Source: Thermofilum pendens Hrk 5 (GTDB taxonomy: Archaea; Thermoproteota; Thermoprotei; Thermofilales; Thermofilaceae). From it: 32,000 bases of DNA. Location of the stretch: assembly GCF_000015225.1 (NCBI RefSeq), contig NC_008698.1, positions 570,001 to 602,000 of the forward strand. The letters are read 5' to 3'. The translations under genes were made by a program, and so were the position numbers. Below the pieces are notes generated by a model that worked only from the letters and a program-made list of their open reading frames with translations, was not told the DNA's origin and ran no database searches. Shown here piece by piece: positions 15,940 to 32,000 of this stretch; within the stretch, counting starts at the first letter, position 1; every line of letters begins with the position of its first letter.

Positions 15940-15967
15940 TGAGAGGAGCTTTATTCCTAGTTTCGCG

Positions 15968-18476: not shown

Positions 18477-18555
18477 GCTACGAGCATAACTAGTTGCAGC
18501 ATCGCGCGAGCGCATGTGCCGATAGGTAAAAAAAGGTTCTCATAACGATTGGTAA

Positions 18556-19398: not shown

Positions 19399-19411
19399 TT
19401 CACGCGAATTT

Positions 19412-20065: not shown

Positions 20066-20094
20066 AAATTTCTTTTCTCTCTCGGTGTCTTTCC

Positions 20095-20727
20095 TCAGAC
20101 GTCTAACGATTTATGGTAGACCTGTGAAAGTAGTTCTCCGGGGTCCATTGAAAGCCTAAGAACAGTGTTGAGGTCTTTATCCCTAACTTCAACTACAAGA
20201 TTTTCTCCGTTTCTCGAAAGAAAAGTGTACTCGGAGGCGTAAGGTCTAAGTGCGGAGAAAAACCTGGGCTTTGAATCAAGCCCCGGCATAGTCACGATGA
20301 GCACTGTACACCGGCTCTTCTCGGCTACTTCGTAGAGCTTCGCGGCCACAAAGGTATTAGCCCTAAGAACTGGGTGAGACTTTCCTAGGGTCAACAGGGG
20401 GGATGTGAGCGAGGCGAAGCCGTCGTACACGATAACTGTATTTTCATCGCTGACCTGCTCTAAGCGCAGTAGAGCGGCGACCTCCTCTTTGAAACTTAGT
20501 GCTCTGAGAACGAGAAAATCCTTTGAGAAGCTACTAGGGAAATCCAGGAATGCATGCTTCGCTAGCCCAACGTAGACCTTCCTCTCTTTCTTCATGGACT
20601 TTGCGAGCAGTAAGGCAAAAGTTGTTTTTAGCGAGCCGGGCTCGCCATATACTACGTGAAGCCCAGACCTAGATAGTATTCGTAGCAACCTTCCGTATTT
20701 TTCTCCTCGTGGCGTCGGAGACCCCAT
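20095..20727 (-). CDS. RecA-superfamily (RadA-paralog/KaiC-like) single-domain ATPase with a deviant P-loop
   Basis: VVYGEPGSLKTTFALLLA (Walker A with Leu in place of the second Gly of GxxxxGKT). Walker B-like TVIVYDGF and CTVLIVTM strands. 210 aa. Confidence 0.6.
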   Translation of the reverse strand: MGSPTPRGEKYGRLLRILSRSGLHVVYGEPGSLKTTFALLLAKSMKKERKVYVGLAKHAFLDFPSSFSKDFLVLRALSFKEEVAALLRLEQVSDENTVIVYDGFASLTSPLLTLGKSHPVLRANTFVAAKLYEVAEKSRCTVLIVTMPGLDSKPRFFSALRPYASEYTFLSRNGENLVVEVRDKDLNTVLRLSMDPGELLSQVYHKSLDV

Positions 20728-20728
20728 G

Positions 20729-21088
20729 CTACTTGAAGTTTGTGTAGATGAATAGCAACAGGAGCAGCGATACCGCCACTACAGCTACACCGCTCACGAG
20801 CGTGAAGTAAAACGCGGAGCGCTGAGGGCTATACTTAGTAGAGTCGTATATGATCAGTAACCCTACGATCGCCATCGCGTATAGGAAGAGGACTATGATC
20901 ATCTCGGAGACTGTCTGGCCGCCGCCGGACGGGTAAATCAGTTGCACTCCGAGCGAGAAGGGCGGGCGCTCCGAGAGGACGTAGAAAACCCCAGAAGCTA
21001 TCAAGAGTATCACTGCTAGCAGTGCCGCGGCGAGAACCCTGAAATCTATACCACGCTTCGATACTCTTAGAGCCACGAGTTTCTCCAT
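20729..21088 (-). CDS. small integral membrane protein (3-4 predicted TM segments)
   Basis: Hydrophobic stretches AAALLAVILLIASGVFYVL, MIIVLFLYAMAIVGLLIIY and FYFTLVSGVAVVAVSLLLLLFIY. Its stop lies 1 nt from the ATG of the ATPase gene. The TATA-like box is only ~10 nt from ATG 21088, so GTG 21076 may be the real start. Confidence 0.5.
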   Translation of the reverse strand: MEKLVALRVSKRGIDFRVLAAALLAVILLIASGVFYVLSERPPFSLGVQLIYPSGGGQTVSEMIIVLFLYAMAIVGLLIIYDSTKYSPQRSAFYFTLVSGVAVVAVSLLLLLFIYTNFK

Positions 21089-21120
21089 TCACGAGAGTAT
21101 AAATTGTTTGCGCAATGCTG

Positions 21121-21167
21121 GGAGGAGAGGGCCGGGGCGCCTACTCCCTGCCGGTCTTACTCTTTAG
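21121..21167 (-). repeat. solo 3'-tail repeat (copy C) of the multicopy unit, inverted orientation
   Basis: The reverse complement reads CTAAAGAGTAAGACCGGCAGGGAGTAGGCGCCCCGGCCCTCTCCTCC. Its first 23 nt are identical to 28121-28143, and the remainder matches the C-rich tail. Confidence 0.85.
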
Positions 21168-21248
21168 TTGTTTCGCCCCCGCGCGCAGGTGCACGCAAAG
21201 CTTATGCTTGTGTCTTTTGACCATGTAATGGGGGTTGTGTGCGTGTAC

Positions 21249-21428
21249 ATGGTTAGGTGCTCGAAGTGTGGGTATGCGTTCTACAGAGGGGAGAAAATGC
21301 CGAACTTGTTCAAGGTCTACTCATCGGTGGGGGGAAAATGCCCCAGATGTGGAAACGCTATTGGCTGGGTTCCTAAAAGTATCAACGTAGTCAAACGCTC
21401 GGCGTCCCGAAGAGGCGCTCGAAGCTAA
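21249..21428 (+). CDS. small zinc-ribbon protein
   Basis: 59 aa from the internal ATG: MVRCSKCGY..GKCPRCGN with a basic tail. The upstream part of the track ORF (21168..) overlaps the tail repeat. Confidence 0.45.
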   Translation: MVRCSKCGYAFYRGEKMPNLFKVYSSVGGKCPRCGNAIGWVPKSINVVKRSASRRGARS

Positions 21429-21558
21429 CCACGGGCGGATGGGAGAAGTAGAGACCCCCTTTAACAGGTTCACTCGCCAAACGCGCGCGGCGCGCGAAAG
21501 AAAGAGATATATTTGGCGTGGTATAGCGGTTTTTACAGCGAATATGCGGGTGTAGGGC

Positions 21559-23754
21559 GTGGCGAGAGGCGAGAAGGTTGTTGGAAAGCTGGTATCTGCC
21601 TTGGAGTTTCTAGGCAGCCCGAAGGTTGTCGTCGCTGTTCTCCTACTTATGTCGTTCACAGTAACGTTGCTTGCAAGGCTCACACCCATGCATTGGGGCG
21701 TGTATCTCAACGAGTTCGACCCTTACTACGAGTACTACCTTTCTGAGCAGTTACTCGCACACGGCAACGGCAACTACTTCGCAGGGGTTGCGTGGTGGTA
21801 TCACTGGTGGTTCGAAAACCCCAAACCTAGAGACACGCTTTTCTGGGCTCCGGAAGGGAGAGACCTTAGAGGGACAAGCCAACCTGGACCAGCGTTCTTT
21901 AGCGCTGGTGTCTATACTCTCTTGAGGACTCTCGGCTTCGACGTTTCGCTGTACTACGTCCACGCTTTCCTAGTACCCTTTGTAGCGTCACTAGCGGTGT
22001 TCACGGCCTACTTGCTGGGGAGCGAGCTAAAGGACTACAGAGCGGGCGTGCTAGCGTCCGTACTCATAGCTCTAAGCTGGGCGTACATGTACAGAACGAA
22101 TCTAGGCGCGAAGCACGAGGCGATAGCCATTCCATTCATGTTGCTTGGTTTTTACCTGTTCCTTAAAGGCTACAAGAAAAAGTCGCTACTACTGTCGATA
22201 CTGGCCGGGCTCTCCCTCGGAGTAGTAGTTCTCGCGTGGGGAGCCTACGTTTACCCGTGGAACCTACTGGCGCTCGTCGTCCTCTTCTGGCTATTCTTCC
22301 ACCCGGACGATACCGCGATAGCCAGGTCGTACGTAGCAACAAACCTTGTGGTAACATTCTTCGTGGCTACGACGCCCAGGTTCGGCCCCTCCGTAGCGTT
22401 CATGTCTTTCTTGGGCTTCCTGCCGCTAGTGGCCACCCTAGCTTCGATACTGGTAATCTTCGGCATAAGGGTTCCCTCGAGTAGCCTTGGGGCCAAGAAG
22501 ACACGTAGGACTTTACTCGTACTTCTCGTCGTCTTGCTCGTAGTTTTCGCCTTGGGGACTTACCTCGGAGTGTTCCGGGGGCTTGCCGGCAGAATAATGG
22601 CTGTAGTCATGCCCCTTGTACGCGAGCCTGGCGTTACCACGGTGGCCGAGCACCAGGTTCCCACGTGGAACCAGCTCTTCGACGACTTCCAGACCTCGCT
22701 TATATTCGCGTTTTTCGCAGGCTACCTCTACTTCCTTAAGTCGAAGGATGACTTCAACAGCGCCTTTATCTCGCTCTTCATAGCTACGGCGGTGTACTTC
22801 TCCGCCTCCATAGTTAGGCTTCTTCTACTCCTCTCCCCCGCCGTCGCGATTGCAGGGTCTCTCGGTCTCGTCGAAATACTGGATAGGCTGGCACTACCTG
22901 CGGAGAGAAGCTACGACAAGAGACACAGAGGAGCCTCCACCCAGACAACGCGCCACCTAGCGATCCTGATAGCGGTAATCCTGTTGCTCCTCTTCTCCCC
23001 GTCTATACTCGCCTCAAAAATACCGCTGAACTCCCACCAACCACCACTCATACTCACGTCTTCCGTGCCCCTAGTGCGGTACGACTACGAGTACATGGAC
23101 TGGCTGTCCGCCCTTCAGTGGATATCCGAGAACGTGCCTAGGGATGCGACGATAGCGACCTGGTGGGATTACGGGTACTGGATAAGCGTGAACACGGGAA
23201 GGAAGACTACGTGTGACAACGCTACTATAGACACGAAGCAGATACAGAAGATAGCTAAGGCCTTTATGAGCGACGAAGACACCGCGCTAAGGATATTCAA
23301 GGAGCTGAACGTCTCCTACGTCGTAGTGTTCGAGCCTCTCCAACAGCTACAGCTCTCGAACGGCCTCACGGTATGGTTCTCGATGATGCACCCCGCGCTC
23401 GGCGGAGACATAGCTAAATCTCCGCAAATGCTCAAGTGGATCGGGCTCAGCGCTAACGACTACATATACGGGTATAACAACGGATCTTTCGCCTACCTGC
23501 AACAAGGGGGCTACACGCTCTACCTGATACTTCCAGCCAACACCCCGCAAGCGCTCAACGCGACGCTCTACAGGATGGTATACACGAGAAACCATAAGCA
23601 GCAAGTATTCATCTTTGACCCCTTCCTCTACCAGCTCTTCGGGCTCCAGGGATACAAAGGACCCACGTACACGTTCGCCCCCCTCAAGAACTTCGAGCTC
23701 GTATACGTGTCAGAGCCAAACGGGTGGGTAAAAGTTTTCAGGGTCAAGGGGTAG
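21559..23754 (+). CDS. aglB: archaeal oligosaccharyltransferase AglB (STT3 family)
   Basis: 731 aa. About 13 TM N-terminal domain, diagnostic WWDYGYWI motif and a C-terminal soluble domain. Confidence 0.95.
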   Translation: MARGEKVVGKLVSALEFLGSPKVVVAVLLLMSFTVTLLARLTPMHWGVYLNEFDPYYEYYLSEQLLAHGNGNYFAGVAWWYHWWFENPKPRDTLFWAPEGRDLRGTSQPGPAFFSAGVYTLLRTLGFDVSLYYVHAFLVPFVASLAVFTAYLLGSELKDYRAGVLASVLIALSWAYMYRTNLGAKHEAIAIPFMLLGFYLFLKGYKKKSLLLSILAGLSLGVVVLAWGAYVYPWNLLALVVLFWLFFHPDDTAIARSYVATNLVVTFFVATTPRFGPSVAFMSFLGFLPLVATLASILVIFGIRVPSSSLGAKKTRRTLLVLLVVLLVVFALGTYLGVFRGLAGRIMAVVMPLVREPGVTTVAEHQVPTWNQLFDDFQTSLIFAFFAGYLYFLKSKDDFNSAFISLFIATAVYFSASIVRLLLLLSPAVAIAGSLGLVEILDRLALPAERSYDKRHRGASTQTTRHLAILIAVILLLLFSPSILASKIPLNSHQPPLILTSSVPLVRYDYEYMDWLSALQWISENVPRDATIATWWDYGYWISVNTGRKTTCDNATIDTKQIQKIAKAFMSDEDTALRIFKELNVSYVVVFEPLQQLQLSNGLTVWFSMMHPALGGDIAKSPQMLKWIGLSANDYIYGYNNGSFAYLQQGGYTLYLILPANTPQALNATLYRMVYTRNHKQQVFIFDPFLYQLFGLQGYKGPTYTFAPLKNFELVYVSEPNGWVKVFRVKG

Positions 23755-23938
23755 ACGCTTTCGCGTTACCTTGTAGTAGCTGAAGCTTGATTTTTCGCCT
23801 ATACTCGCCGTACTTGTCATCAGGAGAAAACTTCGCCGGGTGCGGAGTTTTCACGGGGCCACCGCAGTACGGGCATTTATCTTGTCTGAGTGTGTATAGC
23901 CCGCACTTCTCGCACCTTCTCAGTATTCCTCGAGACAT
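23744..23938 (-). CDS. nop10: H/ACA RNP protein Nop10
   Basis: LRRCEKCGLYTLRQDKCPYCGGPVKTPHPAKFSPDDKYGEYRR. Conserved adjacency to aIF2alpha. The start is Met at 23938, or 23956 if overlapping. Confidence 0.85.
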   Translation of the reverse strand: MSRGILRRCEKCGLYTLRQDKCPYCGGPVKTPHPAKFSPDDKYGEYRRKIKLQLLQGNAKASTP

Positions 23939-23952
23939 GCGGGGCACCTGTC

Positions 23953-24750
23953 TCATGTCTCTAGGCGTTTATAGCTAAAGCTGCACCCGTTCTTTTTTGC
24001 TGCCTGCTCCATTACTGATATTATTTCGGCCAGGATTTTCTCTCCTTCCTTGTAGCTCTGTGCCTCAATGTCGAGCTTGTACCTAGGGGACCCGAGCGTG
24101 TACACCCTTACGCTGGCATCTCGGGGGATGCTTACCACGTTTTCCCACTCCGTGAGGGTGGACTTTACGCCCTCTATTCCCTTCGAGAGGCACTGGAGGT
24201 TTATAAGCGCAGAGAGCTTAACCTTCTTGGGCTTGATACCCTGTCTTGCTAGTTCTGCGAGCACCTTCGCCCACTGTTTACTGACTCCTGCCTCAAGCAA
24301 TGCCTCTTCTCCGCGCGCACTTGCCTCCTCTAGCCCCCTGAATATCTCTCCATAGTGATCCTCAAGCTTCCATCCTGCTTCCCTGTAGGCATCGTCCAAC
24401 GTTTTGTTAAGCTTTGAAGCAGCCATTTCCAGTATCTTCTCCGCCCTCTGTGCGCGCTTCCACTCTATGATCTTCTCCCTCCTTTCCTTCTCGGAAACTC
24501 TTCTAAGAGATACGTCTACGAGCTTCTTGTTCCTGTCTACCCTGATAACTTTTAAGACGTATTTCCGCCCTACCTTCAAAACATCTCGTATATTTTTAAA
24601 CCAGGAGTGGCTGACCTCTCCTAGAGGTATGTATGCCTTTAGCCCTCCAAACTCATCGAGAGAGACGAACGCTCCGTGATCCTGAATATCGATTACCGTC
24701 CCGACTACCAGCTCGTTTAGGCTCGGCACATCCTCCCTTCTGCGCACCAT
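23953..24750 (-). CDS. eif2a: translation initiation factor aIF-2 alpha subunit
   Basis: 265 aa. N-terminal S1 domain (VVGTVIDIQDHGAFVSLDEFGGLKAYIPLGEVS), then helical and alpha-beta C-terminal domains. Confidence 0.95.
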   Translation of the reverse strand: MVRRREDVPSLNELVVGTVIDIQDHGAFVSLDEFGGLKAYIPLGEVSHSWFKNIRDVLKVGRKYVLKVIRVDRNKKLVDVSLRRVSEKERREKIIEWKRAQRAEKILEMAASKLNKTLDDAYREAGWKLEDHYGEIFRGLEEASARGEEALLEAGVSKQWAKVLAELARQGIKPKKVKLSALINLQCLSKGIEGVKSTLTEWENVVSIPRDASVRVYTLGSPRYKLDIEAQSYKEGEKILAEIISVMEQAAKKNGCSFSYKRLET

Positions 24751-24867
24751 AAGACATCCTAGAGTTCTAGGAAGTATACTATAAAAAGATGTTGGAGTAC
24801 AATGGCTCGCGTGCGAGAGGAGAATTAACGCGTGCTGGAAGTATAGCGTTACGGAGAAATCAGCTCT

Positions 24868-25065
24868 CTATAGGACCTCGAGTATCTCGGCTATTATCAG
24901 CGCTTTGCCACCTGTAGGCTCTACTAGTATTTTACCGCACTTAGGACACTTGACCTTCGTTGACGCGTGGCTATACGTTACAAGGATATTGCCGCAGTCT
25001 GGGCATCGGATCTTGAGAAACTTGCTTCGTGGTTGTGGGATAAGGGCCTTGCGCTCGTGCCCCAC
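24868..25065 (-). CDS. rps27e: 30S ribosomal protein S27e
   Basis: 65 aa. Zinc ribbon CPDCG..CPKCG with [19 protein letters not shown]. Confidence 0.9.
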
Positions 25066-25067
25066 GC

Positions 25068-25355
25068 TTACTTCACCTTTTCTACTATTTCAAGCTTCTT
25101 CAGTCTGATACCTTCCTTGTGATACGTATAGCCGCAGACCTTGCACTTAAGCTTTAGAACCTGCTTCTTGGTCACTTTAGCAGTTCTCTTCTGTTCGGGC
25201 TTACGCTTCGAACCGTAACCTTTCTGCTTCCTAAGATAGCGTCTTTGCCCCTCGGCAAGGGTTCTTCTCTTCCCAGCCTTGTAAAGCGTTACTTCATGCT
25301 CTGTGTAAGTTTTGCACCGCGGACAGTAGGTGCGGATAACGCTTGGAACTTTCAT
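25068..25355 (-). CDS. rpl44e: 50S ribosomal protein L44e
   Basis: 95 aa. [30 protein letters not shown] pattern of L44e. Confidence 0.9.
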
Positions 25356-25392
25356 TTCACTTCACCGAGCCCACCCCTCTTCTATGAAATTA

Positions 25393-25407
25393 CATTATAA
25401 ACCTTAC
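25393..25407 (-). promoter_or_regulatory. BRE/TATA promoter of the L44e-S27e operon
   Basis: The minus strand reads GTAAGGTTTATAATG, about 40 nt upstream of ATG 25355, with an SD-like GGTGA in between. The same GTAAGGTTTAT core occurs in the EF-1alpha promoter. Confidence 0.6.
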
Positions 25408-25557
25408 GCATGCGAGAGACAAGCTTCGAGAGAACCTTGGCAGCCTTGTACCTGTTTAGCCTGGGCGCTATATCTCTTTGAAGCCTAAAATAAGGATCTT
25501 GATCGCGCGCGGTAGCGCGTGTTTACAAACCAGGGAAAAAGGAGAAAAAGGAGTTTT

Positions 25558-25788
25558 TTACGCTAGCCCTAGCTCTCTCAGCTCCTCAACGCCCTCCTCA
25601 AGCTCGCGCTCCAGCTCTTCGTCTTCCTCGACTCGCGGGGTCGCGCTTCCCACGGAGGTTAAAAACTCTTCGATTGCGTCCAACGCCTCTACTAGGCGCG
25701 CCTCGTACAGCCCGTCGCCCTTAAGAGTGCTCGCCAAAAGCCGCGAAAGCGCGCCTATCGTTCGCACGGTAACTCTCGGGTCGCTCAT
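25558..25788 (-). CDS. small acidic helical protein, unknown function (part of the multicopy unit)
   Basis: 76-aa ORF (MSDPRVTVRTIGALSRLL...EEDEELERELEEGVEELRELGLA). SD-like GAGGTAATGAGG lies upstream. A T/C-rich terminator-like tract after the stop is also partly retained at 18128-18160. Confidence 0.35.
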   Translation of the reverse strand: MSDPRVTVRTIGALSRLLASTLKGDGLYEARLVEALDAIEEFLTSVGSATPRVEEDEELERELEEGVEELRELGLA

Positions 25789-25896
25789 GCTCGGTCAACC
25801 CTCATTACCTCTTTCAACGCGGAAAAAACGGGAGAAAGCTCCCACGTTTACAAACGCAGGCAATAAATCCCAAAATCCACTATTAACATAGCAATC

Positions 25897-26672
25897 GGGC
25901 TCGCGGCCGAAAAGTGAAGCCGCGTCTACACCCCGGGAGGCGACACAGGCAAAGCCCCCGGGAGAGGCGCTCAACAGGTGAACCCCGCGGCCCAAAAATG
26001 AGCAATGACCCCAGACAGCCCGGCCGCGGGAGGACGGGGGAGGAGGGGGCCGAGGCGCAAGCAAAGACTAGGCCTGGGGGAGAAACCCTGCAATCCCCTG
26101 CCGCTAAAATTGAATTTTTTTCCCGCGTGTCTAACCCAACCCTCCCATCATTGGGGGCCCTCCCCGACAGGGAGGGGTTCAATGAGCCCCGCGCGCGGGG
26201 AGGCCCGGCGCGGGGCGAGGGAGGCGTAGCCCGCGGGGAGCCCCGGGGTTACGCCTCTCCGGGGCCCAGTGAGCGCCCCGGGGTGGGGAGGCCCTCCCGG
26301 GCGCGAGGGGAGCGCTTGGCCGCGGGGAGGCCCGGGCCAGGCGCTCTAGACACGCGGGGGCGGCGGGGGAGGCGGGGCTCTGGGGCCCCAGCCCCGGGCT
26401 GGGGCGTCTCTCCCCGGTTGGGGAGAGACCGGCCTAGGGGCCGATTCGTGAAGCCCGACACGATGAGCCGAAAGGTGACGGTCGCCCCTAGTAAACGACG
26501 CCGGCCTTCCCGGGGGGCCGGGCAAAGGCGGGCGAGGCCTTGGCCCCAGCGGGCCCGCCCGAGAAAGCAATCACTTCGAAGCACTCACCGCTCACGCCTC
26601 CCTCCCGCCACGCTGACCCCTGATAGCGCGCCCTCGCGGGGCGCCCCACCCGCCACGTGGAGGGTGGGTGAT
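25897..26672 (+). ncRNA. candidate large structured RNA and/or structured 5' leader (unclassified extreme-GC island)
   Basis: 149/180 G+C in 26221-26400 by my count. G>C skew on the plus strand. All frames are open but low-complexity. There are many perfect stems and an internal T7 run at 26115-26121. The strand is inferred only from G-skew, T-run and the upstream AT-rich box. Confidence 0.35.
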
Positions 26673-28124
26673 ATGAGTGAGGCCTTGATGAGGGGAAATG
26701 GAGCCGTGGGGGAGGGGGTCGAGAAGACTGTTAGGGAGGAGGTTTGGAGGCGTGCGGCTCTAAGCTTGTATGCCACCAGGACAGAGGATAAGAGGAGGTC
26801 CAGGGGTAAGAAGAAGAAGGGCGAGATACACTACCGCGGCCTGCACGATGCTGTGACCGAGGTCGACTGGGACTTTACCAGGTTCGCGGCACACGCGCTG
26901 ACCGTCGTGCCGGACGACGTCTACCCGAGGTTTTACAGGTTCATCGACATCGACGCGAGGAAGTACCTCTTGCTGAACAGCGACGAGAGGCCACGCGAAG
27001 GAAGCGCTGTGACGGAGCTCAAAGGAAGGTTGCAAGCAATAGTCGACGCCGGCGCCGACGGTCTTAGAGCTGAGAAGCATGGCAGAGTCTGGCACGTATA
27101 CATACCTAGAGAGAACTGGTATGTCGTCGTGAGCAAGCCCACTAACGGCTGGTCCGTGCACGTACCGCTGAAGGGTTACTGGGTTGAATCAGAGTTCCCG
27201 GAGGTTCTCGTGAGGACACCACCAGACGTGCTTAGAAGCCTGCAGAAAGGGTGGGTCTTAACGGATGTGACACCCCCTCGTGGACGCTTCAGCGACGTGA
27301 GTTTCGCCACGACGCAACCGTGGCAACTCCCCAGTACGCTCGCAAGCTTTCCGAGCGACGATATCAAGCTCGGCGTCACGGCGGGCATACTCGGCAGTAC
27401 CAGGCTGAGCATCCAGTGGCACGCGCGTGTCTACGGCTACGAGGAGGCGCTCTCCTGGGCTTCAAGGCTTATCGGCGAAGTTAAACGTGCAGAGTTCCGC
27501 AGGTTGGTCGAGGAGTGCAAAGCGCTCAACGGCGACCCAGTGGCTCTTTTCACTGGCTTCTTGGGGGACGGCGGGCTCGAATACTTTCTAAGGCTTAGAT
27601 GGCTCTACTTCAAGGTTGGACACGAGCTTCTCTACTTGCCGGCGGAGAGCGCCATTGTCAATGCTCGCTTGGCCGTGGAGAGGGCAAGCGAGTACGTGCG
27701 CTTTGTCTCGCTGGTAACTAAGTGTCCGAAGGTCAAACACTTCCTATACGTCGGCTACGGGATGCTGCAGAAGAGGGGCAGGAAAAACGGACAGAGAAAT
27801 AACACGTTCTATGCCGAGGTAGCGGGAGCTAGGCTACACCTAGTCTACATCTCTACGAAGAACCACGTCTACGCCCGTATCGCGGTCGAAGCTGTGCCTC
27901 AAGGCTGGGTGGAGGAGGCGCGCGCTCAAGGCTGGGACGTCCGGGTGGTTAACATGGGAGGCAGGGAGTACTACCAGGTGACTCACAGTTCTCTCTTTGA
28001 ACACGCGCGTAGCGACACAGAGCTACGCGCAACACTCCTCGCCTTCGCGAAGCACAAGGCTGAGCAGTACCCCAAGGCGCAGAGCCTCGTAGAACGCCTC
28101 GAAAAACTGGGGACAGAAGACTAA
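26673..28124 (+). CDS. 483-aa protein of a multicopy family, function unknown
   Basis: Normal composition resumes at ATG 26673, preceded by SD-like GGAGGGTGGGTGAT. The C-terminal ~195 aa are paralogous to ORF 15991..16578 and partly to 18290-18440. The track ORF start at 25914 merely runs through the GC island. Confidence 0.65.
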   Translation: MSEALMRGNGAVGEGVEKTVREEVWRRAALSLYATRTEDKRRSRGKKKKGEIHYRGLHDAVTEVDWDFTRFAAHALTVVPDDVYPRFYRFIDIDARKYLLLNSDERPREGSAVTELKGRLQAIVDAGADGLRAEKHGRVWHVYIPRENWYVVVSKPTNGWSVHVPLKGYWVESEFPEVLVRTPPDVLRSLQKGWVLTDVTPPRGRFSDVSFATTQPWQLPSTLASFPSDDIKLGVTAGILGSTRLSIQWHARVYGYEEALSWASRLIGEVKRAEFRRLVEECKALNGDPVALFTGFLGDGGLEYFLRLRWLYFKVGHELLYLPAESAIVNARLAVERASEYVRFVSLVTKCPKVKHFLYVGYGMLQKRGRKNGQRNNTFYAEVAGARLHLVYISTKNHVYARIAVEAVPQGWVEEARAQGWDVRVVNMGGREYYQVTHSSLFEHARSDTELRATLLAFAKHKAEQYPKAQSLVERLEKLGTED

Positions 28125-28164
28125 AGAGTAAGACCGGCAGGGAAAGGCGCCCGGCCCCCTCCCC
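28122..28164 (+). repeat. C-rich 3'-tail repeat of the full-length unit
   Basis: TAAAGAGTAAGACCGGCAGGGAAAGGCGCCCGGCCCCCTCCCC, starting at the ORF stop codon. Related copies lie at 16576-16617, 18438-18476 and 21121-21167 (reverse complement). Confidence 0.85.
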
Positions 28165-28175
28165 TTAGCTTGTCC

Positions 28176-28192
28176 TGAGTAAGGTTTATCTA
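28176..28192 (+). promoter_or_regulatory. duplicate copy of the EF-1alpha BRE/TATA box (function unknown)
   Basis: TGAGTAAGGTTTATCTA is identical over 17 nt to 28298-28314. The following ~80 nt loosely resemble the EF-1alpha 5' leader. Confidence 0.45.
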
Positions 28193-28297
28193 GCGCGCGT
28201 TGCGCGGCTCGCCGTAACTTACCTTGTCGTGAATTCCGCTATGGTAATGTATTGGTGCGCGGCTCCGCAGGCTCGCAGTGCCTAGTGCTACTATAGG

Positions 28298-28314
28298 TGA
28301 GTAAGGTTTATCTA
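28298..28314 (+). promoter_or_regulatory. EF-1alpha promoter (BRE/TATA)
   Basis: TGAGTAAGGTTTATCTA lies about 45 nt upstream of ATG 28356, with an SD-like GAAGGTG in the leader. Confidence 0.6.
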
Positions 28315-28355
28315 TACCGTTATTATCGTGATTTCTGCAAGCGAAGGTGTAAAGT

Positions 28356-29657
28356 ATGTCTGAGAAAAAGCCACACTTAAACCTGGTAGTGATAGGACAC
28401 ATCGACCACGGAAAAAGCACCCTAATGGGAAGACTCCTCTACGAGATAGGCGCGGTAGACCCCAGGCTGATTCAGCAGTACGAGGAGGAAGCGAAAAAGA
28501 TGGGTAGGGAGACGTGGAAGTACGCTTGGGTTCTAGACAAGCTCAAGGAGGAGAGAGAGAAGGGTATCACAATCGACCTCGGCTTCTACAAGTTCGAGAC
28601 TAAGAAGTACTTCTTCACGCTGATTGACGCGCCGGGTCACAGGGACTTCGTTAAGAACATGATAACCGGAGCTAGCCAGGCTGACGTCGCATTGCTCGTC
28701 GTATCTGCTAAGGAGGGTGAATTCGAGGCTGGCATAAGCCCTGCTGGTCAGACCAGGGAGCACGTCTTCCTGGCGAAGACGATGGGCGTAGACCAGCTGG
28801 TCGTGGCTATAAACAAGATGGACACGGTTAACTACAGCAAGGAGAGGTACGAGGAAATTAAGAACCAGCTGATAAGGTTGCTCCGAATGGTCGGCTACAA
28901 GGTGGACGAGATACCGTTCATACCGACTTCGGCGTGGGAAGGCGTGAACGTGTCCAAGAGGACCCCCGAGAAGACTCCGTGGTACGACGGGCCATGCCTC
29001 TACGAGGCGTTCGACTTCTTCAAGGAGCCTCCGAGGCCCATAGACAAGCCGCTAAGGATACCCATACAGGACGTCTACAGCATTAAAGGAGTAGGCACAG
29101 TTCCCGTTGGGAGAGTCGAGACAGGCGTACTCAAAGTTGGAGACAAGATAATCATCAACCCGCCGAAAGCAGTGGGAGAAGTCAAATCCATAGAGACCCA
29201 CCACACGCCGCTCCAGGAGGCTATACCAGGGGACAACATAGGTTTCAACGTGAAGGGCGTTGAAAAATCTCAGTTGCGGCGTGGCGACGTGGCAGGACAT
29301 ACAACGAACCCGCCGACTGTTGCGGAAGAATTCACAGGTAGGATCTTCGTCCTGTACCACCCGACGGCCATCGCGGCAGGCTACACACCGGTGCTGCACA
29401 TACACACGGCGACCGTCCCGGTAACGTTTGAGGAGCTACTTCAGAAGCTTGACCCAAGGACGGGTAGCGTTGCAGAGGAGAAGCCGCAGTACATTAAGCA
29501 GGGTGACTCCGCCATCGTAAGGTTCAAACCGAGGAAGCCGGTCGTCGTGGAGAAGTACTCTGAGTTCCCACCACTAGGCAGGTTCGCCATTAGAGACTCT
29601 GGCCGCACCATTGCTGCCGGAGTAGTAATCGACGTGAAGAAAGCCGAAGGCTATTAA
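28356..29657 (+). CDS. tuf: translation elongation factor EF-1 alpha
   Basis: 433 aa. [21 protein letters not shown] and SAWEG G-motifs, with full-length aEF1A architecture. Confidence 0.97.
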
Positions 29658-29728
29658 CGGGTGCTAACGCTTTTCAATGGAAAAATAAATATACACCCCG
29701 GATTTTTGTGCGTTCTAGGTGGGTCGCC

Positions 29729-30037
29729 GTGCCAAGCAAGGTACGCATACGTCTGAGCAGCACGAACATCGAGGATCTAAACGCTGTTTGCGAAGAGATT
29801 CGGCAAATAGCCCAGAAGACAGGCGTGAAGATGAGGGGGCCCATACCGTTACCCGTTAAGAGAATGAGGGTTGTCACTAGGAGAGCTCCATCGGGGCAGG
29901 GTTACGAGACATTCGATAGGTTCGAGTTGAGGATTCATAAAAGGTTAATAGACTTGGACGCAGATGAGAGAGCGACTAGGCTTCTTCTACGAACACGTGT
30001 ACCTCCCACTGTGCGCGTCGAAATCGAGGTTATCTGA
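29729..30037 (+). CDS. rps10: 30S ribosomal protein S10
   Basis: [55 protein letters not shown] 29729 is preferred; 29708 is the alternative. Conserved tuf-rps10 linkage. Confidence 0.9.
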
Positions 30038-30205
30038 AGCTAAGCCTTGTACGTCTTCTTCAAGGTTCCTCTGCATTCTCCACTAAGCTCCAAGCGCGGA
30101 ATGGAAGATTTTCCGAAGACGTATCGTTTCTATAAACGGTCTCCAGTTGTACTCGGTAGCCGCAAACCCGGTAGCTGTATGAAGGAATGACAAGCCACTC
30201 GAGGA

Positions 30206-30218
30206 AAAGTATAAAAAC
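30206..30218 (+). promoter_or_regulatory. TATA box of the tRNA gene
   Basis: AAAGTATAAAAAC lies about 35-40 nt upstream of the tRNA 5' end. Confidence 0.5.
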
Positions 30219-30251
30219 ATGGATTCAGAGACGACTTCTGGATTAGAATTA

Positions 30252-30348
30252 GGGCCCGTAGCGCAGTCAGGAAGCGCGGCGGCCACGCCTGCAGGGCGCC
30301 GCAGTCCTAAGCCGCAGGTCCCGGGTTCGATTCCCGGCGGGCCCGCCA
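30252..30348 (+). tRNA. tRNA-Arg (anticodon CCU) with a 20-nt intron at non-canonical position 32/33 and encoded CCA
   Basis: Acceptor GGGCCCG/CGGGCCC, D arm GCGC-AGTCAGGAA-GCGC, anticodon stem GCGGC/GCCGC, T arm CCGGG-TTCGATT-CCCGG, discriminator G and CCA. Removing 30285-30304 gives the loop C-U-CCU-A-A. The intron is flanked by a bulge-helix-bulge: GCGG / CCA / CGCC-TGCAG-GGCG / CCGC / AGT. Confidence 0.85.
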
Positions 30349-30361
30349 CACGGGCGGGGTT

Positions 30362-30964
30362 CTAGTCCGCGTTTTCTATAGCTACGCGGGAGTGAGGCCC
30401 GGCGATTACTGCGCTTACACCGTACACGTCGTCGAGAATCAGCGTGAAAGGGGTGAAGTCCCCCTCTGCTATACTGTCTAGGAGTTTGACCATGTCGTCT
30501 ACCCGGGCTTCTTCGTCCAGGGTCTTCAAGCGTAGCAAGGCGTCCTTGAAGAGTTGTAGCACTCCTTCCACGTTCGTTACAAACATTTCTGCGTCAAGTC
30601 CCGGGCGTAGCTCTAGGCCTAGCTCGGGTATGAATATTCTAGCGGTAGGCGACCTAACTACCTTTATGTAGAGATCCTCCTTTTTTTCCACCCTTAAGTA
30701 CACGCGGGTGTGTCTCTGGAAGGACAGAGGCACTATGTCTGTTCTCTTATAACCGCACTTCGCGCACTTCTTCGAGACAAGCAATGTCTTTCCCAGGCTG
30801 GGCAGCATGTACTCTACTTCTCTTACCTTCAGAGGTCCGCCGCACACAGGGCAAACGTCTTCAAACTCGCCGAGCAACCTCCCGTACTCTGTCACGTTCT
30901 CTCCGTCTCCTGCTACCTGCTCGACACCTTCAACGCCACCCTCCCCGGAACTCTGGGACGACAT
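30362..30964 (-). CDS. ZPR1-type zinc-finger protein
   Basis: 200 aa. CPVCGG..(22 aa)..CAKCGY followed by a beta-rich domain, as in the archaeal single-module ZPR1 family. Confidence 0.65.
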   Translation of the reverse strand: MSSQSSGEGGVEGVEQVAGDGENVTEYGRLLGEFEDVCPVCGGPLKVREVEYMLPSLGKTLLVSKKCAKCGYKRTDIVPLSFQRHTRVYLRVEKKEDLYIKVVRSPTARIFIPELGLELRPGLDAEMFVTNVEGVLQLFKDALLRLKTLDEEARVDDMVKLLDSIAEGDFTPFTLILDDVYGVSAVIAGPHSRVAIENAD

Positions 30965-31045
30965 CCGGATCCGCCACGTGCCCCGCGCGGCGTACTTATT
31001 AAGACGAGCAAAGCTTTATTTCTCTTTGCAGGCTTTTTGACTCTC

Positions 31046-31432
31046 GTGGAGCGAGAGGATAAGGAGGTAGTCTCTAGAATGGCTAACTTGCTCAAGTCTG
31101 GTGCCACGATGCTGGAAACTCTCTGCCCTACGTGCAGGGTTCCGCTCTTCCGCTTAAAGTCAGGAGAAGTGGTATGCCCCAAGTGTGGGCAACGCTACGT
31201 GATCGTAGCGAGCGAAGAGGAAGAGCACAGAGTGAAGGTAGATCTCGTACTCCTTGGTCTTGAACAGGTTACGGTGCAGAAGATAAGTAGTCTTAGCGCC
31301 TCTCTTGCGTCCTCGGAGACCTTCGACGAGATAACCGAGGTTAGCAGAGCTATAATCACGCTCCTACAGGTGCTACAACTTTCTAGGCAGATTAGAGGTT
31401 CGGAGAAAGGTGTACAGGAGAAAGGCAAGTGA
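31046..31432 (+). CDS. UPF0148 / autoantigen-p27-like zinc-ribbon protein
   Basis: ..VVSRMANLLKSGATMLETLCPTCRVPLFRLKSGEVVCPKCG followed by a helical tail. The start is GTG 31046 (about 30 nt after AAAGCTTTATTTC) or ATG 31079 (SD-like AGGAGGT upstream). The track start 30710 is antisense to the ZPR1 gene. Confidence 0.65.
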   Translation: MEREDKEVVSRMANLLKSGATMLETLCPTCRVPLFRLKSGEVVCPKCGQRYVIVASEEEEHRVKVDLVLLGLEQVTVQKISSLSASLASSETFDEITEVSRAIITLLQVLQLSRQIRGSEKGVQEKGK

Positions 31433-32000
31433 TGAGGTTCACGTCGTATACAGCGAGGAGACATGGAGGGTCTTCAGGGAGTTACGGGAGAAGGCGCGCG
31501 TGGCATTGCGGTGCTTGGACGTGTTGCGGATACCTGTGTACGTCGTTGGCAGCGTCGCTCGGGGCGACGTCACGAGAAAGAGTGATGTTGACCTCTTTCT
31601 GGAACGATGTGTTGCCCCATCGTATGTTACCGGCTTGCTCGAGGAATGTGGATTCTTGGTCGAAAAATACGAAGTCATATGGGCTTCACCACAGACAGCA
31701 GTGAAGCTAGTGATCCACGTAGAGGATAACGTCAAGGTGACTTTACCTGTCACCGATCTTTCGCCAGCAGAGAAGGAGTTCCCCCGATTCGCGGGAAGCG
31801 TGACCTCGGAAGACGTGGACGCTGGGAGAAGGGTAGCCGGGGTGAACAAGTTCTTGAGGTTCATCGAGCCAACCGAGGATGGCCACGTAGAGTGGTCTAT
31901 ACTGGGGCGCGAGGAGGAAGTCGCGAGGAGGCTGGGCATTTCGCTGGGCACTGTTCTCGAGAGAGAAGCTATGAGGATGAAGAGGTGGGCGAGGGGGAAG
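31410..32000 (+). CDS. Pol-beta-superfamily nucleotidyltransferase domain protein (partial; continues past the window end)
   Basis: Not in the ORF track because it has no stop in the window. My translation from GTG 31410 reads ..VYVVGSVARGDVTRKSDVDLFL.. (GS-x-ARGD..DxD NTase signature) and stays open to base 32000. It overlaps the upstream gene by 23 nt. The antisense track ORF 31439..31951 is therefore spurious. Confidence 0.6.
   Translation, partial: MYRRKASDEVHVVYSEETWRVFRELREKARVALRCLDVLRIPVYVVGSVARGDVTRKSDVDLFLERCVAPSYVTGLLEECGFLVEKYEVIWASPQTAVKLVIHVEDNVKVTLPVTDLSPAEKEFPRFAGSVTSEDVDAGRRVAGVNKFLRFIEPTEDGHVEWSILGREEEVARRLGISLGTVLEREAMRMKRWARGK

What the first reader, a model, noticed from the sequence alone, without database searches (positions are those of the whole stretch)
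25897..26672. ~0.77-kb extreme-GC, G-skewed, hairpin-dense non-coding island: candidate large structured RNA of no family I can assign
Composition: G+C jumps from about 55% in neighbouring genes (33/60 in 28441-28500 by my count) to 149/180 in 26221-26400. G exceeds C on the plus strand (33 G vs 18 C in 26281-26340). Coding: every frame is open here (track ORFs 25914.. and 26005.. on plus; 25795.., 25883.., 26249.., 26346.. on minus). All translate to R/G/P/A low complexity, so the openness is compositional rather than coding. Stems: CGCGGC/GCCGCG 25902-25907:25919-25924. GAGGCGTA/TACGCCTC 26221-26228:26250-26257. A 12-bp GAGCGCTTGGCC/GGCCAGGCGCTC 26310-26321:26335-26346 (one G-U). A 10-bp GTCTCTCCCC-GGTT-GGGGAGAGAC 26406-26429. 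GGCGGGC/GCCCGCC 26527-26533:26553-26559. GCGCCC/GGGCGC 26628-26633:26639-26644. There is also a 15-nt direct repeat CGCGGGGAGGCCCGG at 26194-26208 and 26321-26335. Layout: one AT patch TAAAATTGAATTTTTTT (26105-26121) splits the island into a ~210-nt module ending in a T7 run (terminator-like, or a second TATA box) and a ~550-nt module running into ATG 26673. Interpretation: in hyperthermophiles local GC spikes classically mark structural RNA genes. I see no rRNA or tRNA features, no RNase P CR-I (GAGGAAAGUCC) and no SRP helix-8 GGAA-loop motif. A several-hundred-nt structured RNA or leader tied to a multicopy ORF would be unusual for archaea.
Basis: partly seen in the sequence, partly recalled or inferred. 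Interest (0 to 1): 0.85.

Follow-up and report, generated by a model that had tools for sequence, protein, structure and literature searches.

The report
Conserved structured RNA before LAGLIDADG-like gene
The GC-rich island is a real, conserved, heavily folded RNA that sits in front of a multi-copy gene for a homing-endonuclease-like protein in Thermofilum and related archaea, belongs to no catalogued RNA family, and has an unknown function.

Summary
Window 25897-26672 (Thermofilum pendens) is 72% G+C against 53% for the window, and it folds far better than shuffles (z = -6.9).

It is not coding. It is the T. pendens version of a conserved sense-strand RNA upstream of Tpen_0646 (true start near 26673).

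- **Layout:** TATA-like box, hairpin with UGA motifs, A/U patch with T7, multi-hairpin domain A closed by a 12-bp helix, domain B, then two hairpins before the ATG.
- **Paralog conservation:** the RNA domains are 90-92% identical to a paralog locus, against 80% for the ORF.
- **Wider distribution:** the same layout precedes distant homologs in hot-spring metagenomes and in cultured T. adornatum.
- **Covariation:** 15 of 34 pairs in domain A show compensatory changes (0 of 500 shuffles reach this). Conserved G.U pairs place the structure on the plus strand.
- **Rfam:** no match.
- **Protein:** predicted LAGLIDADG homing-endonuclease fold, distantly related to Pfam PaRep2b.

Function is inferred only. 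I favour a cis-acting leader or ribonucleoprotein that controls expression. A trans-acting partner RNA is not excluded. This appears to be an undescribed RNA family.

The parts
25558..25788 (-). Small divergent ORF (76 aa). It is conserved in the paralog locus L001 (3678-3851) and was found only in T. pendens. It is part of the repeated unit; function unknown.
   Evidence: no Pfam, PHROG or NCBIfam hit
25521..25530 (+). GTTTACAAAC motif, copy 1, just beyond the stop of the small ORF. Candidate regulator binding site.
   Evidence: 2 matches in the window, 0.03 expected
25846..25855 (+). GTTTACAAAC motif, copy 2, in the divergent promoter region between the small ORF and the RNA. L001 has four inverted copies at the equivalent place.
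25862..25868 (+). TATA-like box AATAAAT within the block ACGCAGGCAATAAAT, which is invariant in the paralog. The predicted start of the RNA is about 25 nt downstream, near 25893.
   Evidence: AT-rich boxes 25-35 nt upstream of the first hairpin in other lineages. Inferred, not mapped.
25893..26104 (+). Module 1. It holds a T. pendens-specific 5' extension with hairpin 25902-25907/25919-25924. It then holds the conserved M1 hairpin: 9-bp stem 25984-25992/26022-26030 with a loop carrying AUGA..AAUGACCCC, preceded by GGUGAAC.
   Evidence: nhmmer hit to L035. The M1 stem is fully complementary but different in 7 lineages. There are weak C/D-box-like hits in T. adornatum.
26105..26121 (+). A/U patch TAAAATTGAATTTTTTT. 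An A run followed by a T5-7 run is conserved in the Thermofilales-type loci. It is a candidate attenuator or terminator, or a U-rich protein-binding tract.
26122..26358 (+). Domain A, a multi-hairpin domain closed by helix P1 (26122-26133 with 26347-26358). It contains hairpins Ha (about 26142-26158), Hb (26159-26178) and Hd (26221-26257), plus the extra hairpin 26310-26346.
   Evidence: Covariance model R1 hits 26118-26272 on the plus strand at 40.6 bits, E 1.4e-7. Covariation is shown. P1 has a different sequence in each lineage.
26188..26275 (+). 88-nt internal duplication within domain A, absent from paralog L001. It is the source of the 15-nt direct repeat.
   Evidence: (D2, D3)
26359..26612 (+). 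Domain B, a G+C-rich multi-hairpin domain that includes the 10-bp hairpin 26406-26429. It is 92% identical in the paralog. In T. adornatum and L013-type loci this position holds a CA-rich, poorly structured spacer, so the domain is lineage-specific.
26628..26644 (+). Hairpin Hy, GCGCCC-N5-GGGCGC. The stem sequence is invariant in 22 of 22 aligned loci. Candidate protein-binding operator.
26645..26668 (+). Hairpin Hz, CCCACCC...GGGTGGG. Its 3' arm runs into GGGUGAU and the ATG, so it occludes a Shine-Dalgarno-like sequence and start region. Four of its 7 pairs covary across loci.
26673..28124 (+). ORF Tpen_0646 (483 aa from this ATG). It is a PaRep2b-like protein with a predicted central double LAGLIDADG-like fold. 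D198 and G298-D299-G300 are invariant.
28120..28162 (+). Conserved 3' tail of the repeated unit. It is also present after the truncated copy (about 16575-16614), as a solo copy at 21124-21168 on the minus strand, and in L001 at 6409-6451.

Best explanation
SHOWN. The island is an RNA-level element, structured on the plus strand and not coding. It is the expanded T. pendens version of a conserved multi-domain RNA. That RNA is encoded immediately upstream of, and in the same orientation as, a multi-copy gene. The gene's product is predicted to have a LAGLIDADG homing-endonuclease-like fold and is distantly related to Pfam PaRep2b.

The conserved order is as follows. First comes a TATA-like box. 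Next is hairpin M1, with UGA-rich (k-turn-like) motifs at its base and in its loop. Next is an A run followed by a U5-7 tract. Next is domain A, closed by helix P1. Next is a variable spacer, which in T. pendens is the G+C-rich domain B. Last come the invariant hairpin Hy and the covarying hairpin Hz, which ends at the start codon.

INFERRED. One primary transcript starts near 25893 and runs through the U tract into the ORF. The leader acts in cis to limit and time expression of a potentially genotoxic endonuclease-like protein. Two mechanisms are proposed. The U tract would cause partial termination (attenuation), giving a short RNA of about 225 nt. Hz would occlude the ribosome-binding and start region. 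Hy and domain A would be the docking sites for a protein. The most likely candidates are the element's own product, since LAGLIDADG proteins are known to bind structured RNA as maturases, together with L7Ae at the k-turn-like motifs. Leader and protein would then form an autoregulatory ribonucleoprotein.
For: **Composition and folding.** These are confirmed.

**Not coding.** Indels against the paralog break the frame, the paralog has in-frame stops, and the family N-termini align at about 26673.

**Selection on the RNA.** Domains A and B are 90-92% identical between paralogs. The ORF is 79.8% identical, with 70.6% at third codon positions.

**Same architecture before distant homologs.**
- G+C islands of 500-700 nt lie upstream of most of 80 metagenomic loci, including genomes of 42-48% G+C.
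- nhmmer links window 25974-26181 to L035 at E 6e-10.
- Model R1 hits 27 loci on the sense strand upstream of the ORF. These include the window (E 1.4e-7) and cultured T. adornatum (124.7 bits).

**Covariation.**
- Domain A: 96.3% of cells paired and 15 of 34 pairs with changes on both sides. No shuffle of 500 reaches this, and slid controls give at most 8 pairs.
- Hy/Hz: 98.3% paired and 4 of 7 Hz pairs compensatory.
- The M1 and P1 stems are fully complementary but differ in sequence in each lineage.

**Strand.** G.U or U.G pairs are conserved at four positions in 11-15 of 17 sequences. On the other strand, or in a DNA cruciform, these would be A.C mismatches.

**Start-region occlusion.** The Hz 3' arm abuts GGGUGAU-AUG here and GGGGUGAG in other loci.

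**Protein.** The AlphaFold model has pLDDT 85.9. Top Foldseek matches are LAGLIDADG endonucleases in two libraries: I-WcaI and I-SceI at probability 0.97-0.99, and a viral LAGLIDADG protein at E 8e-4. The GDG motif is invariant.
Against: There are no expression data, so the transcript ends, read-through of the T7 run and the stability of any product are all unknown.

A T7 run is a good archaeal terminator signal. Module 1 could therefore be a separate small RNA, and the rest might depend on rare read-through.

Module 1 alone does not fold better than shuffles (z = -0.4).

The Shine-Dalgarno-like sequence lies 0-1 nt from ATG 26673. That is too close for a normal Shine-Dalgarno sequence, so the real start may be the next ATG (26688) and the occlusion argument is loose.

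High paralog identity in the RNA could partly reflect gene conversion.

Covariation counts come from metagenomic sequences that are partly close relatives.

Protein binding to Hy or domain A is pure inference.

The LAGLIDADG assignment rests on fold matches with weak E-values (0.001-0.03) and low TM scores (about 0.4 on the target).

Some homolog subfamilies (for example L004 and L032) lack a long G+C-rich leader, so the RNA is not obligatory for the protein family.
Confidence: 0.5

Rival explanations
1. Trans-acting partner RNA. The RNA, or a processed stable part of it such as domain A and domain B, is a functional non-coding RNA. It assembles with the LAGLIDADG-like protein into a ribonucleoprotein and acts elsewhere. 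It could act as a scaffold, a specificity factor or a guide for DNA or RNA recognition, by analogy with the HEARO/omega RNA encoded upstream of IscB.
For: - The position and orientation match HEARO-IscB: a structured RNA directly 5' of the ORF in a multi-copy unit.
- Sequence conservation of the RNA exceeds that of the ORF between paralogs.
- Extreme G+C in a hyperthermophile is typical of stable RNAs.
- The k-turn-like motifs suggest a dedicated RNP.
Against: - No variable guide-like segment matching the element's flanks or other loci was identified.
- LAGLIDADG enzymes recognise long DNA sites through their own beta-sheets and need no guide.
- No orphan RNA copies without an ORF were seen among the fetched loci.
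- Hz is physically joined to the start codon, which argues for a cis role for at least the 3' part.
Confidence: 0.2
2. Two separate genes. Module 1 (25893-26121) is an independent small RNA gene ended by the T7 terminator, with a C/D-box-like or other L7Ae-binding hairpin. The remainder is a separate leader or RNA with its own start.
For: - A TATA-like box precedes M1 at the right distance in several lineages.
- A T5-7 run is conserved at the end of module 1.
- The M1 hairpin of T. adornatum gives sub-threshold matches to three archaeal C/D box sRNA models (best 17.7 bits, E 0.026).
Against: - No AT-rich box lies at -25 from the 5' arm of P1. In the window, L001, L035 and L015, P1 starts 0-3 nt after the T run, so a promoter in the A/T patch would cut off a helix that covaries.
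- D and D' boxes are degenerate.
- The two putative guide regions are base-paired with each other, unlike working C/D guides.
Confidence: 0.15
3. Intron-like element with a maturase. The RNA is a self-processing or enzyme-processed (circularised) RNA related to mobile introns. The LAGLIDADG protein is its homing endonuclease and maturase.
For: - LAGLIDADG genes typically live in group I introns, archaeal bulge-helix-bulge introns and inteins, and some act as RNA maturases. This rests on established knowledge, and I-Tsp061I and I-SceI are among the fold hits.
- Thermoproteales are rich in rRNA and tRNA introns.
Against: - The element lies between protein genes (L44e and the small ORF upstream, EF-1alpha downstream), not inside an RNA gene.
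- There are no Rfam group I or group II hits.
- A search for a bulge-helix-bulge motif joining the 5' region to the 3' tail found nothing at homologous positions in the two T. pendens copies.
- Almost all the conserved RNA lies 5' of the ORF, with only about 40 nt 3' of it.
Confidence: 0.07
4. DNA-level element or non-functional by-product. The hairpins would be recombination, replication or protein-binding sites in DNA. Alternatively, the island is a compositional by-product kept uniform by gene conversion.
For: - The minus strand folds equally well by energy (z = -7.4).
- The unit is repeated and leaves fragments, so DNA-level rearrangement does occur.
- Gene conversion could explain 90-92% identity.
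Against: - Conserved G.U pairs are incompatible with a symmetric DNA cruciform or the opposite strand.
- Helices are kept by compensatory changes across lineages of 42-65% G+C. Gene conversion within one genome cannot explain that.
Confidence: 0.05

Closest known systems
HEARO RNA / IscB omega-RNA (Rfam RF02033) with its IscB ORF
   Same: A large, G+C-rich structured RNA is encoded directly upstream of, and co-oriented with, the ORF of a multi-copy selfish element. It was first recognised purely by comparative sequence analysis.
   Different: Rfam gives no match. The protein is not IscB: it has no RuvC or HNH domain and is predicted to have a LAGLIDADG fold. No guide segment was identified. 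The hosts are Thermoproteota archaea.
LAGLIDADG homing endonuclease/maturase genes in group I introns and in archaeal bulge-helix-bulge rRNA introns (for example I-SceI, I-AniI, I-DmoI, I-Tsp061I)
   Same: A LAGLIDADG-fold protein is genetically coupled to a large structured RNA. The acidic residue of the GDG motif is conserved. The taxon is known for such introns.
   Different: - The element is not inserted in an RNA gene.
- No group I core was detected.
- No conserved bulge-helix-bulge boundary was found.
- The RNA lies almost entirely 5' of the ORF.
- The protein is about 480 aa, with large extra N- and C-terminal domains.
paREP2 / PaRep2b repeat family of Pyrobaculum (Pfam PF07775), described as putative transposons (PMC3558965)
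   Same: The protein family is multi-copy, specific to Thermoproteales and of unknown function. One metagenomic member of the present family hits PF07775 above its cut-off (E 8e-8). Homologs occur in several copies in Thermoproteus sp. CP80 (at least 9) and Pyrobaculum sp. WP30 (2).
   Different: The window protein itself does not hit PF07775. Only 2 of 93 aligned members do so, and weakly. I found no report of an associated RNA or of a LAGLIDADG fold for PaRep2b.
Transposase leader control elements such as the IS200 5' UTR
   Same: A hairpin occludes the ribosome-binding and start region. An upstream terminator-like hairpin or T run could block or attenuate transcription into the gene of a selfish element.
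   Different: This leader is 0.5-0.8 kb with several conserved multi-helix domains, far more than is needed for simple occlusion. The hosts are archaea, and no transposase domain is present.
Archaeal box C/D sRNAs
   Same: The base of hairpin M1 carries a C-box-like (A)UGAUGA or GGUGAA motif. Its loop carries tandem UGA motifs resembling C' boxes. There are sub-threshold matches to sR14, sR41 and sR28.
   Different: Scores are far below gathering (17.7 against 38 bits). D and D' boxes are degenerate. The two guide positions are paired with each other. The motif is only the first roughly 60 nt of a much longer RNA.

Membership tests
Any Rfam 15 family (rRNA, tRNA, RNase P, SRP, group I/II introns, HEARO, C/D and H/ACA sRNAs and others) | Covariance-model score at or above the family's gathering threshold | tested here: not met
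   The whole window at gathering gives only the tRNA at 30252-30345. The E-value scan of 25400-27000 gives nothing better than E 0.14 at 17.7 bits. Eight related loci give only a tRNA. The T. adornatum RNA gives only sub-threshold C/D hits.
HEARO / IscB omega-RNA system | The adjacent ORF is IscB (RuvC and HNH nuclease domains) | tested here: not met
   No Pfam, NCBIfam or PHROG domain is found. The fold matches are LAGLIDADG enzymes.
HEARO / IscB omega-RNA system | A structured RNA lies directly 5' of and co-oriented with the ORF in a multi-copy unit | tested here: met
   (a resemblance in layout only)
Archaeal bulge-helix-bulge intron carrying a LAGLIDADG gene | Insertion within an rRNA or tRNA gene | tested here: not met
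   The flanks are the L44e/S27e/eIF2alpha operon and the EF-1alpha gene. No rRNA or tRNA sequence abuts the unit.
Archaeal bulge-helix-bulge intron carrying a LAGLIDADG gene | A bulge-helix-bulge motif is formed by the two boundaries | tested here: not met
   A pattern search of the 5' region against the 3' tail gave 3 hits in the window and 6 in L001, none at homologous positions. Relaxed motifs inside the RNA were not searched exhaustively.
Group I or group II intron | Conserved catalytic core (P3-P7 for group I; domain V for group II) | tested here: not met
   There are no Rfam Intron_gpI or group-II hits, even at E up to 10.
LAGLIDADG homing endonuclease superfamily (protein) | Alpha-beta-beta-alpha-beta-beta-alpha fold with two LAGLIDADG helices at the centre | tested here: inconclusive
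LAGLIDADG homing endonuclease superfamily (protein) | A conserved acidic residue ends each LAGLIDADG helix (the catalytic Asp/Glu) | tested here: met
   G298-D299-G300 and D198 (after G193-W194) are invariant in 93 sequences. They lie at the ends of helices 289-299 and 184-195 of the model. Catalytic activity itself is not testable here.
Pfam PaRep2b (PF07775) | HMM score above the curated cut-off (20.4 bits) | tested here: not met
   The window protein has no hit even at E up to 10. A metagenomic family member, P0063, scores 31.6 bits, and 2 of 93 members hit weakly. The relation is distant, through intermediates.
Archaeal box C/D sRNA (for hairpin M1 only) | C (RUGAUGA) and D (CUGA) boxes, C'/D' boxes, and single-stranded 12-nt guides | tested here: not met
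   C and C'-like motifs are present. The D and D' boxes are degenerate, the guide positions are base-paired, and scores are below gathering.
Protein-coding N-terminal extension (annotated 708-aa Tpen_0646) | The reading frame is preserved among paralogs and extended homologs align | tested here: not met
   Indels break the frame, L001 has 4 in-frame stops, and the extensions of P0001 and P0002 do not align.

The most novel reading that the evidence does not exclude
The RNA and the LAGLIDADG-fold protein form a dedicated ribonucleoprotein of a new class of archaeal selfish element. In it, a large structured RNA would be an essential partner of a homing-endonuclease-like enzyme outside any intron. 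The RNA would act as scaffold, specificity determinant or mobility intermediate. This would be a LAGLIDADG counterpart of the IscB/TnpB omega-RNA systems, or a relic or precursor of the intron-maturase relationship.
Probability: 0.15. Interest if true: 0.95.

Novelty: new variant of a known kind. Interest (0 to 1): 0.72.

Why it matters
Large conserved structured RNAs beyond rRNA, RNase P and SRP are very rare in archaea, and Crenarchaeal mRNAs are mostly leaderless. Here a 0.5-0.8 kb RNA has several covarying domains and no catalogued family. It is tied to a widespread multi-copy protein family of unknown function, with more than 497 loci in hot-spring metagenomes, and that family now appears to be built on a homing-endonuclease fold.

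If the RNA is a leader, it is an unusually elaborate expression control for an archaeal selfish gene. If it is a partner RNA, it would extend the idea of RNA-associated nucleases to the LAGLIDADG superfamily.

It also gives the PaRep2b-like repeats of Thermoproteales their first structural and mechanistic handle. It corrects the annotation of Tpen_0646 and similar genes, whose RG-rich N-termini are translated RNA genes. Finally, cultured hosts exist (T. pendens and T. adornatum), so the question can be tested directly.

Tried and rejected
**Coding extension.** Rejected, because indels break the frame, there are stop codons, and the family N-termini align further downstream.

**Known RNA families.** Rejected.

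**IscB, retron, reverse transcriptase or transposase identity of the ORF.** No domain hits in Pfam, NCBIfam or PHROGs. The PDB sequence search gave only spurious matches to designed proteins.

**First AlphaFold run.** With 13 close paralogs it was useless (pLDDT 43). The 93-sequence alignment fixed this.

**Fetching the other T. pendens paralog loci.** This mostly failed. Eight of nine paralog look-ups were not on record. T. pendens is absent from genome contigs. Only L001 and the identical L002 were obtained, so T. pendens-specific domain B has only two sequences and no covariation test.

**Exact DNA-pattern scans of the T. pendens RNA.** Scans of viral and metagenome collections found nothing. 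The protein scan of viral contigs also found nothing.

**Bulge-helix-bulge boundaries.** Not found.

**Long-range pairing of the 3' tail with module 1.** The duplex energies are strong but no better than with other purine-rich parts of the island, so they are not informative.

**Small 76-aa ORF as a general partner.** Rejected, because it was found only in T. pendens.

Full report
**Source and context.** The window is from Thermofilum pendens. The ORF that follows the island is Tpen_0646. A second T. pendens assembly, GCA_054696865.1, is 100% identical to window 18356-32000. The island lies between the L44e/S27e/eIF2alpha genes plus a small divergent ORF on the minus strand, and Tpen_0646 followed by EF-1alpha on the plus strand.

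**Observation.**
- G+C is 149/180 in 26221-26400.
- There are 33 G against 18 C in 26281-26340.
- The neighbouring gene has 33/60 G+C.
- The island is 72.3% G+C against 53.4% for the window.
- The G+C-richest 776-nt window of the 32 kb starts at 25895. Nothing elsewhere exceeds 58%.

The stems I checked, the 15-nt direct repeat and the AT patch with T7 are all present. Region 26115-26675 folds at -369 kcal/mol against -316 +/- 7.7 for dinucleotide shuffles, z = -6.9. The reverse strand is similar by energy (z = -7.4). The 5' module alone is not special (z = -0.4). A perfect 12-bp helix, 26122-26133 with 26347-26358, begins right after the T7 run and closes a first domain.

**Not coding.**
- The 13 T. 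pendens family proteins align from about the ATG at 26673. The long N-terminal extensions of the annotated Tpen_0646 (708 aa) and Tpen_0892 do not align with each other.
- Against the paralogous locus L001, the island differs by indels of 5, 2, 1, 1, 7, 2, 88, 2, 1, 1, 42 and 1 nt.
- L001 has four stops in the ORF's frame within the last 100 upstream codons.

**Conservation between paralogs.** L001 carries paralog P0003, which is 77% identical in protein. It has the same upstream region.
- Domain A is 90-91% identical and domain B 92%.
- The ORF is 79.8% identical, with 70.6% at third codon positions.
- The loop of the 10-bp hairpin is inverted (GGTT to AACC).
- The hairpin before the ATG changes from CCCACCC/GGGTGGG to CCCCTCC/GGAGGGG, which is two compensatory changes.

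The repeated unit spans about 25551-28162. It includes a small divergent 76-aa ORF and a conserved 43-nt 3' tail.

**The protein family is wide.**
- An exhaustive profile search found remote relatives in T. pendens and in metagenomes.
- A metagenome scan found more than 497 loci.
- The family occurs in several copies per genome in a Thermofilales MAG, Thermoproteus sp. CP80 (at least 9 copies), Pyrobaculum sp. WP30 and a Thermoproteaceae MAG, and in Thermofilum adornatum and Thermofilum sp. MAGs.
- One member reaches Pfam PaRep2b (E 8e-8). The window protein does not, and only 2 of 93 members hit weakly.
- PaRep2b elements have been called putative transposons (PMC3558965).

**Protein fold.** With a 93-sequence alignment, AlphaFold gives a confident model (pLDDT 85.9, pTM 0.71).
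- The best Foldseek matches in the PDB and in BFVD are almost all LAGLIDADG homing endonucleases. They include I-WcaI, I-SceI, I-OnuI, the archaeal intron enzyme I-Tsp061I, WhiA and a phage LAGLIDADG protein. Probabilities are 0.97-1.00, with E 8e-4 to 0.03.
- Invariant residues sit at the ends of the two central helices: G193-W194...D198 and G298-D299-G300. This is where the catalytic acids of the superfamily lie.
- I treat the fold assignment as probable, not proven.

**The RNA travels with the protein family.**
- In most of the 80 metagenomic loci kept, the 500-700 nt upstream of the ORF are 60-83% G+C. This holds even where the contig is 42-48% G+C.
- nhmmer links window 25974-26181 to L035 (E 6e-10).

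Reading the loci side by side gives one architecture:
- An AT-rich box.
- About 25-35 nt later, hairpin M1, with a 9-12 bp stem, a (A)UGAUGAA or GGUGAAC motif at its 5' base, and tandem UGA motifs in the loop.
- 64-95 nt further on, an A run followed by T5-7.
- Within 0-3 nt of the T run, the 5' arm of a long closing helix, P1.
- Inside P1, hairpins Ha (CCCACCC..GGGUGG) and Hb (CGCCCCC..GGGGGCG), a variable arm with a GAUGAGG motif, and hairpin Hd (GUCGCG..CGCGGC) followed by UAGGGGA.
- A variable spacer.
- Hairpins Hy (GCGCCC-N5-GGGCGC) and Hz, followed by UGAG/UGAU and the ATG.

P1 and M1 are fully complementary in each lineage but have different sequences:
- Window P1: CCCGCGTGTCTA/TAGACACGCGGG.
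- L035 P1: CTCCCCCTCTTCCTCT/AGGGGAAGAGGGGGAG.
- L013 P1: CTGGCCCCTTTCC/GGAAAGGGGCCAG.
- L019 P1: CTGCGCGCA/TGCGCGCAG.
- L034 P1: TCATGCTTC/GAAGCATGA.
- M1 has seven different stems.

**Covariance model and covariation.** A covariance model of domain A (R1, 168 positions, 34 pairs) finds 27 sense-strand sites upstream of family ORFs.
- The window is hit at 26118-26272 (40.6 bits, E 1.4e-7).
- Cultured T. adornatum 1505 is hit at 124.7 bits.

| Alignment | Cells paired | Pairs with changes on both sides | Shuffles reaching this |
|---|---|---|---|
| Domain A, 17 best sequences | 96.3% | 15 of 34 | 0 of 500 |
| Hy/Hz, 22 sequences | 98.3% | 4 of 7 in Hz (Hy invariant) | 0 of 500 |

For domain A, slid controls give at most 8 pairs and about 60% pairing. 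Four positions hold G.U or U.G in 11-15 of the 17 sequences. On the opposite strand, or in a DNA cruciform, these would be A.C mismatches. The structure is therefore an RNA structure on the ORF's sense strand.

Caveats:
- The metagenomic sequences are partly close relatives.
- The alignment was fitted to the model.
- The T. pendens-specific domain B has only two sequences.

**Lineage differences.**
- In T. adornatum and the L013 group, the stretch between domain A and Hy is a CA-rich, weakly structured spacer.
- In T. pendens it is the G+C-rich domain B. Module 1 and domain A also carry duplicated hairpins.
- The extreme 0.77-kb island is thus an expanded local version of a shorter conserved RNA.
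- Thermoproteus/Pyrobaculum-type homologs have a different but also conserved leader.
- A few subfamilies have no long G+C-rich leader.

**Known families.**
- Rfam 15 gives nothing at gathering thresholds in the window or in eight related loci apart from tRNAs. It gives nothing credible at E up to 10.
- The M1 hairpin of T. adornatum gives sub-threshold matches to three archaeal C/D box sRNA models (best 17.7 bits against a gathering score of 38). This fits k-turn-like UGA motifs but not a working C/D guide, because the guide positions are paired with each other.
- A search for a bulge-helix-bulge motif joining the 5' region to the 3' tail found nothing shared by the two T. pendens copies.
- The element is intergenic, not within an RNA gene.
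- Literature searches found no description of this RNA.

**Mechanism.** What is shown is a conserved, sense-strand, multi-domain RNA structure. It is physically joined to the start of a multi-copy gene for a probable LAGLIDADG-fold protein. The rest is inferred.
- One transcript would start about 25 nt after the TATA-like box, near 25893. It must include the U tract, because P1 begins immediately after it and no AT-rich box sits at -25 from P1.
- The U tract may terminate part of the transcripts.
- Hz buries the GGGUGAU/GGGGUGAG sequence next to the start codon.
- The invariant Hy stem looks like a protein operator.
- I therefore favour a cis-acting leader that forms an RNP with the element's own protein and L7Ae, and that restrains expression of a potentially harmful endonuclease (confidence about 0.5).

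The main rival is a stable trans-acting partner RNA in the manner of HEARO/omega RNA (0.2). Lesser rivals are:
- A separate small RNA gene for module 1 (0.15).
- An intron-like or maturase relationship (0.07).
- A DNA-level or non-functional origin (0.05).

**Verdict.** The RNA appears to be an undescribed family. Its pairing with a LAGLIDADG-like, PaRep2b-related protein outside any intron is unusual. The function is open but can be tested in cultured organisms.

Noticed in passing
window 15963-16614: A deletion derivative of the same element. It holds the C-terminal ~200 codons of a family ORF plus the 3' tail, 76% identical to 27523-28159. It is directly preceded by GCGCGCCCTCGC, the same 12-mer as the 5' arm of hairpin Hy (26626-26637). 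This looks like an internal deletion joining the leader to mid-ORF.
   Followed up: partly
window 21124-21168 (minus strand): A solo copy of the element's 43-nt 3' tail, 91% identical to 28120-28162, with no ORF attached.
   Followed up: no
window 25521-25530 and 25846-25855; L001 about 4096-4240: GTTTACAAAC occurs only twice in the 32 kb (0.03 expected). Both copies flank the small divergent ORF. The paralog locus has four copies of the inverse motif (GTTTGTAAAC or GTTTGCAAAC) between its small ORF and the RNA promoter. This is a candidate operator for a regulator, perhaps the 76-aa protein.
   Followed up: partly
window 30252-30348: tRNA-Ala(CGC) is 97 nt long, and the Rfam model spans it with about 23 extra nt. 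It probably contains an intron, as is common in Thermofilum.
   Followed up: no
L001 and L002 (GCA_054696865.1): This second T. pendens assembly (1,815,852 bp) is 100% identical to the window over 13.6 kb. It nevertheless carries about nine further diverged paralogs (65-77% protein identity) that do not carry Tpen_ tags of the 1,781,889-bp Hrk5 record. The 34-kb size difference is of the right order for those copies. This could mean collapsed repeats in the old assembly or real copy-number differences.
   Followed up: no
L035 about 3000-3125 and 5265-5355: In this metagenomic contig another family ORF ends about 400 nt upstream of the RNA, giving a tandem arrangement. A tRNA gene follows the ORF within 45 nt.
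   Followed up: no
L086, L087, L090, L091, L100, L101, L054, L064, L080 (upstream of the ORF): Thermoproteus/Pyrobaculum-type homologs have their own conserved non-coding leader. It includes an invariant palindromic hairpin, ACAGGGGGCTAGCCCCCTGT, and a block CGTGAAGGGGCCGGCCCAGACGGCGAATTCGATCAGCCGGACG. This is probably a second, related RNA family.
   Followed up: partly
P0018, P0019, P0052 and other metagenomic homologs; window 25914-26672: Many database proteins of this family carry RG/P-rich N-terminal extensions. These are translations of the G+C-rich RNA, so gene starts in this family are systematically mis-called.
   Followed up: partly
L108 2442-2500 (Thermofilum adornatum): The first hairpin of the RNA starts with a perfect box-C-like AUGAUGA. 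It gives sub-threshold hits to archaeal C/D box sRNA models sR14, sR41 and sR28.
   Followed up: partly
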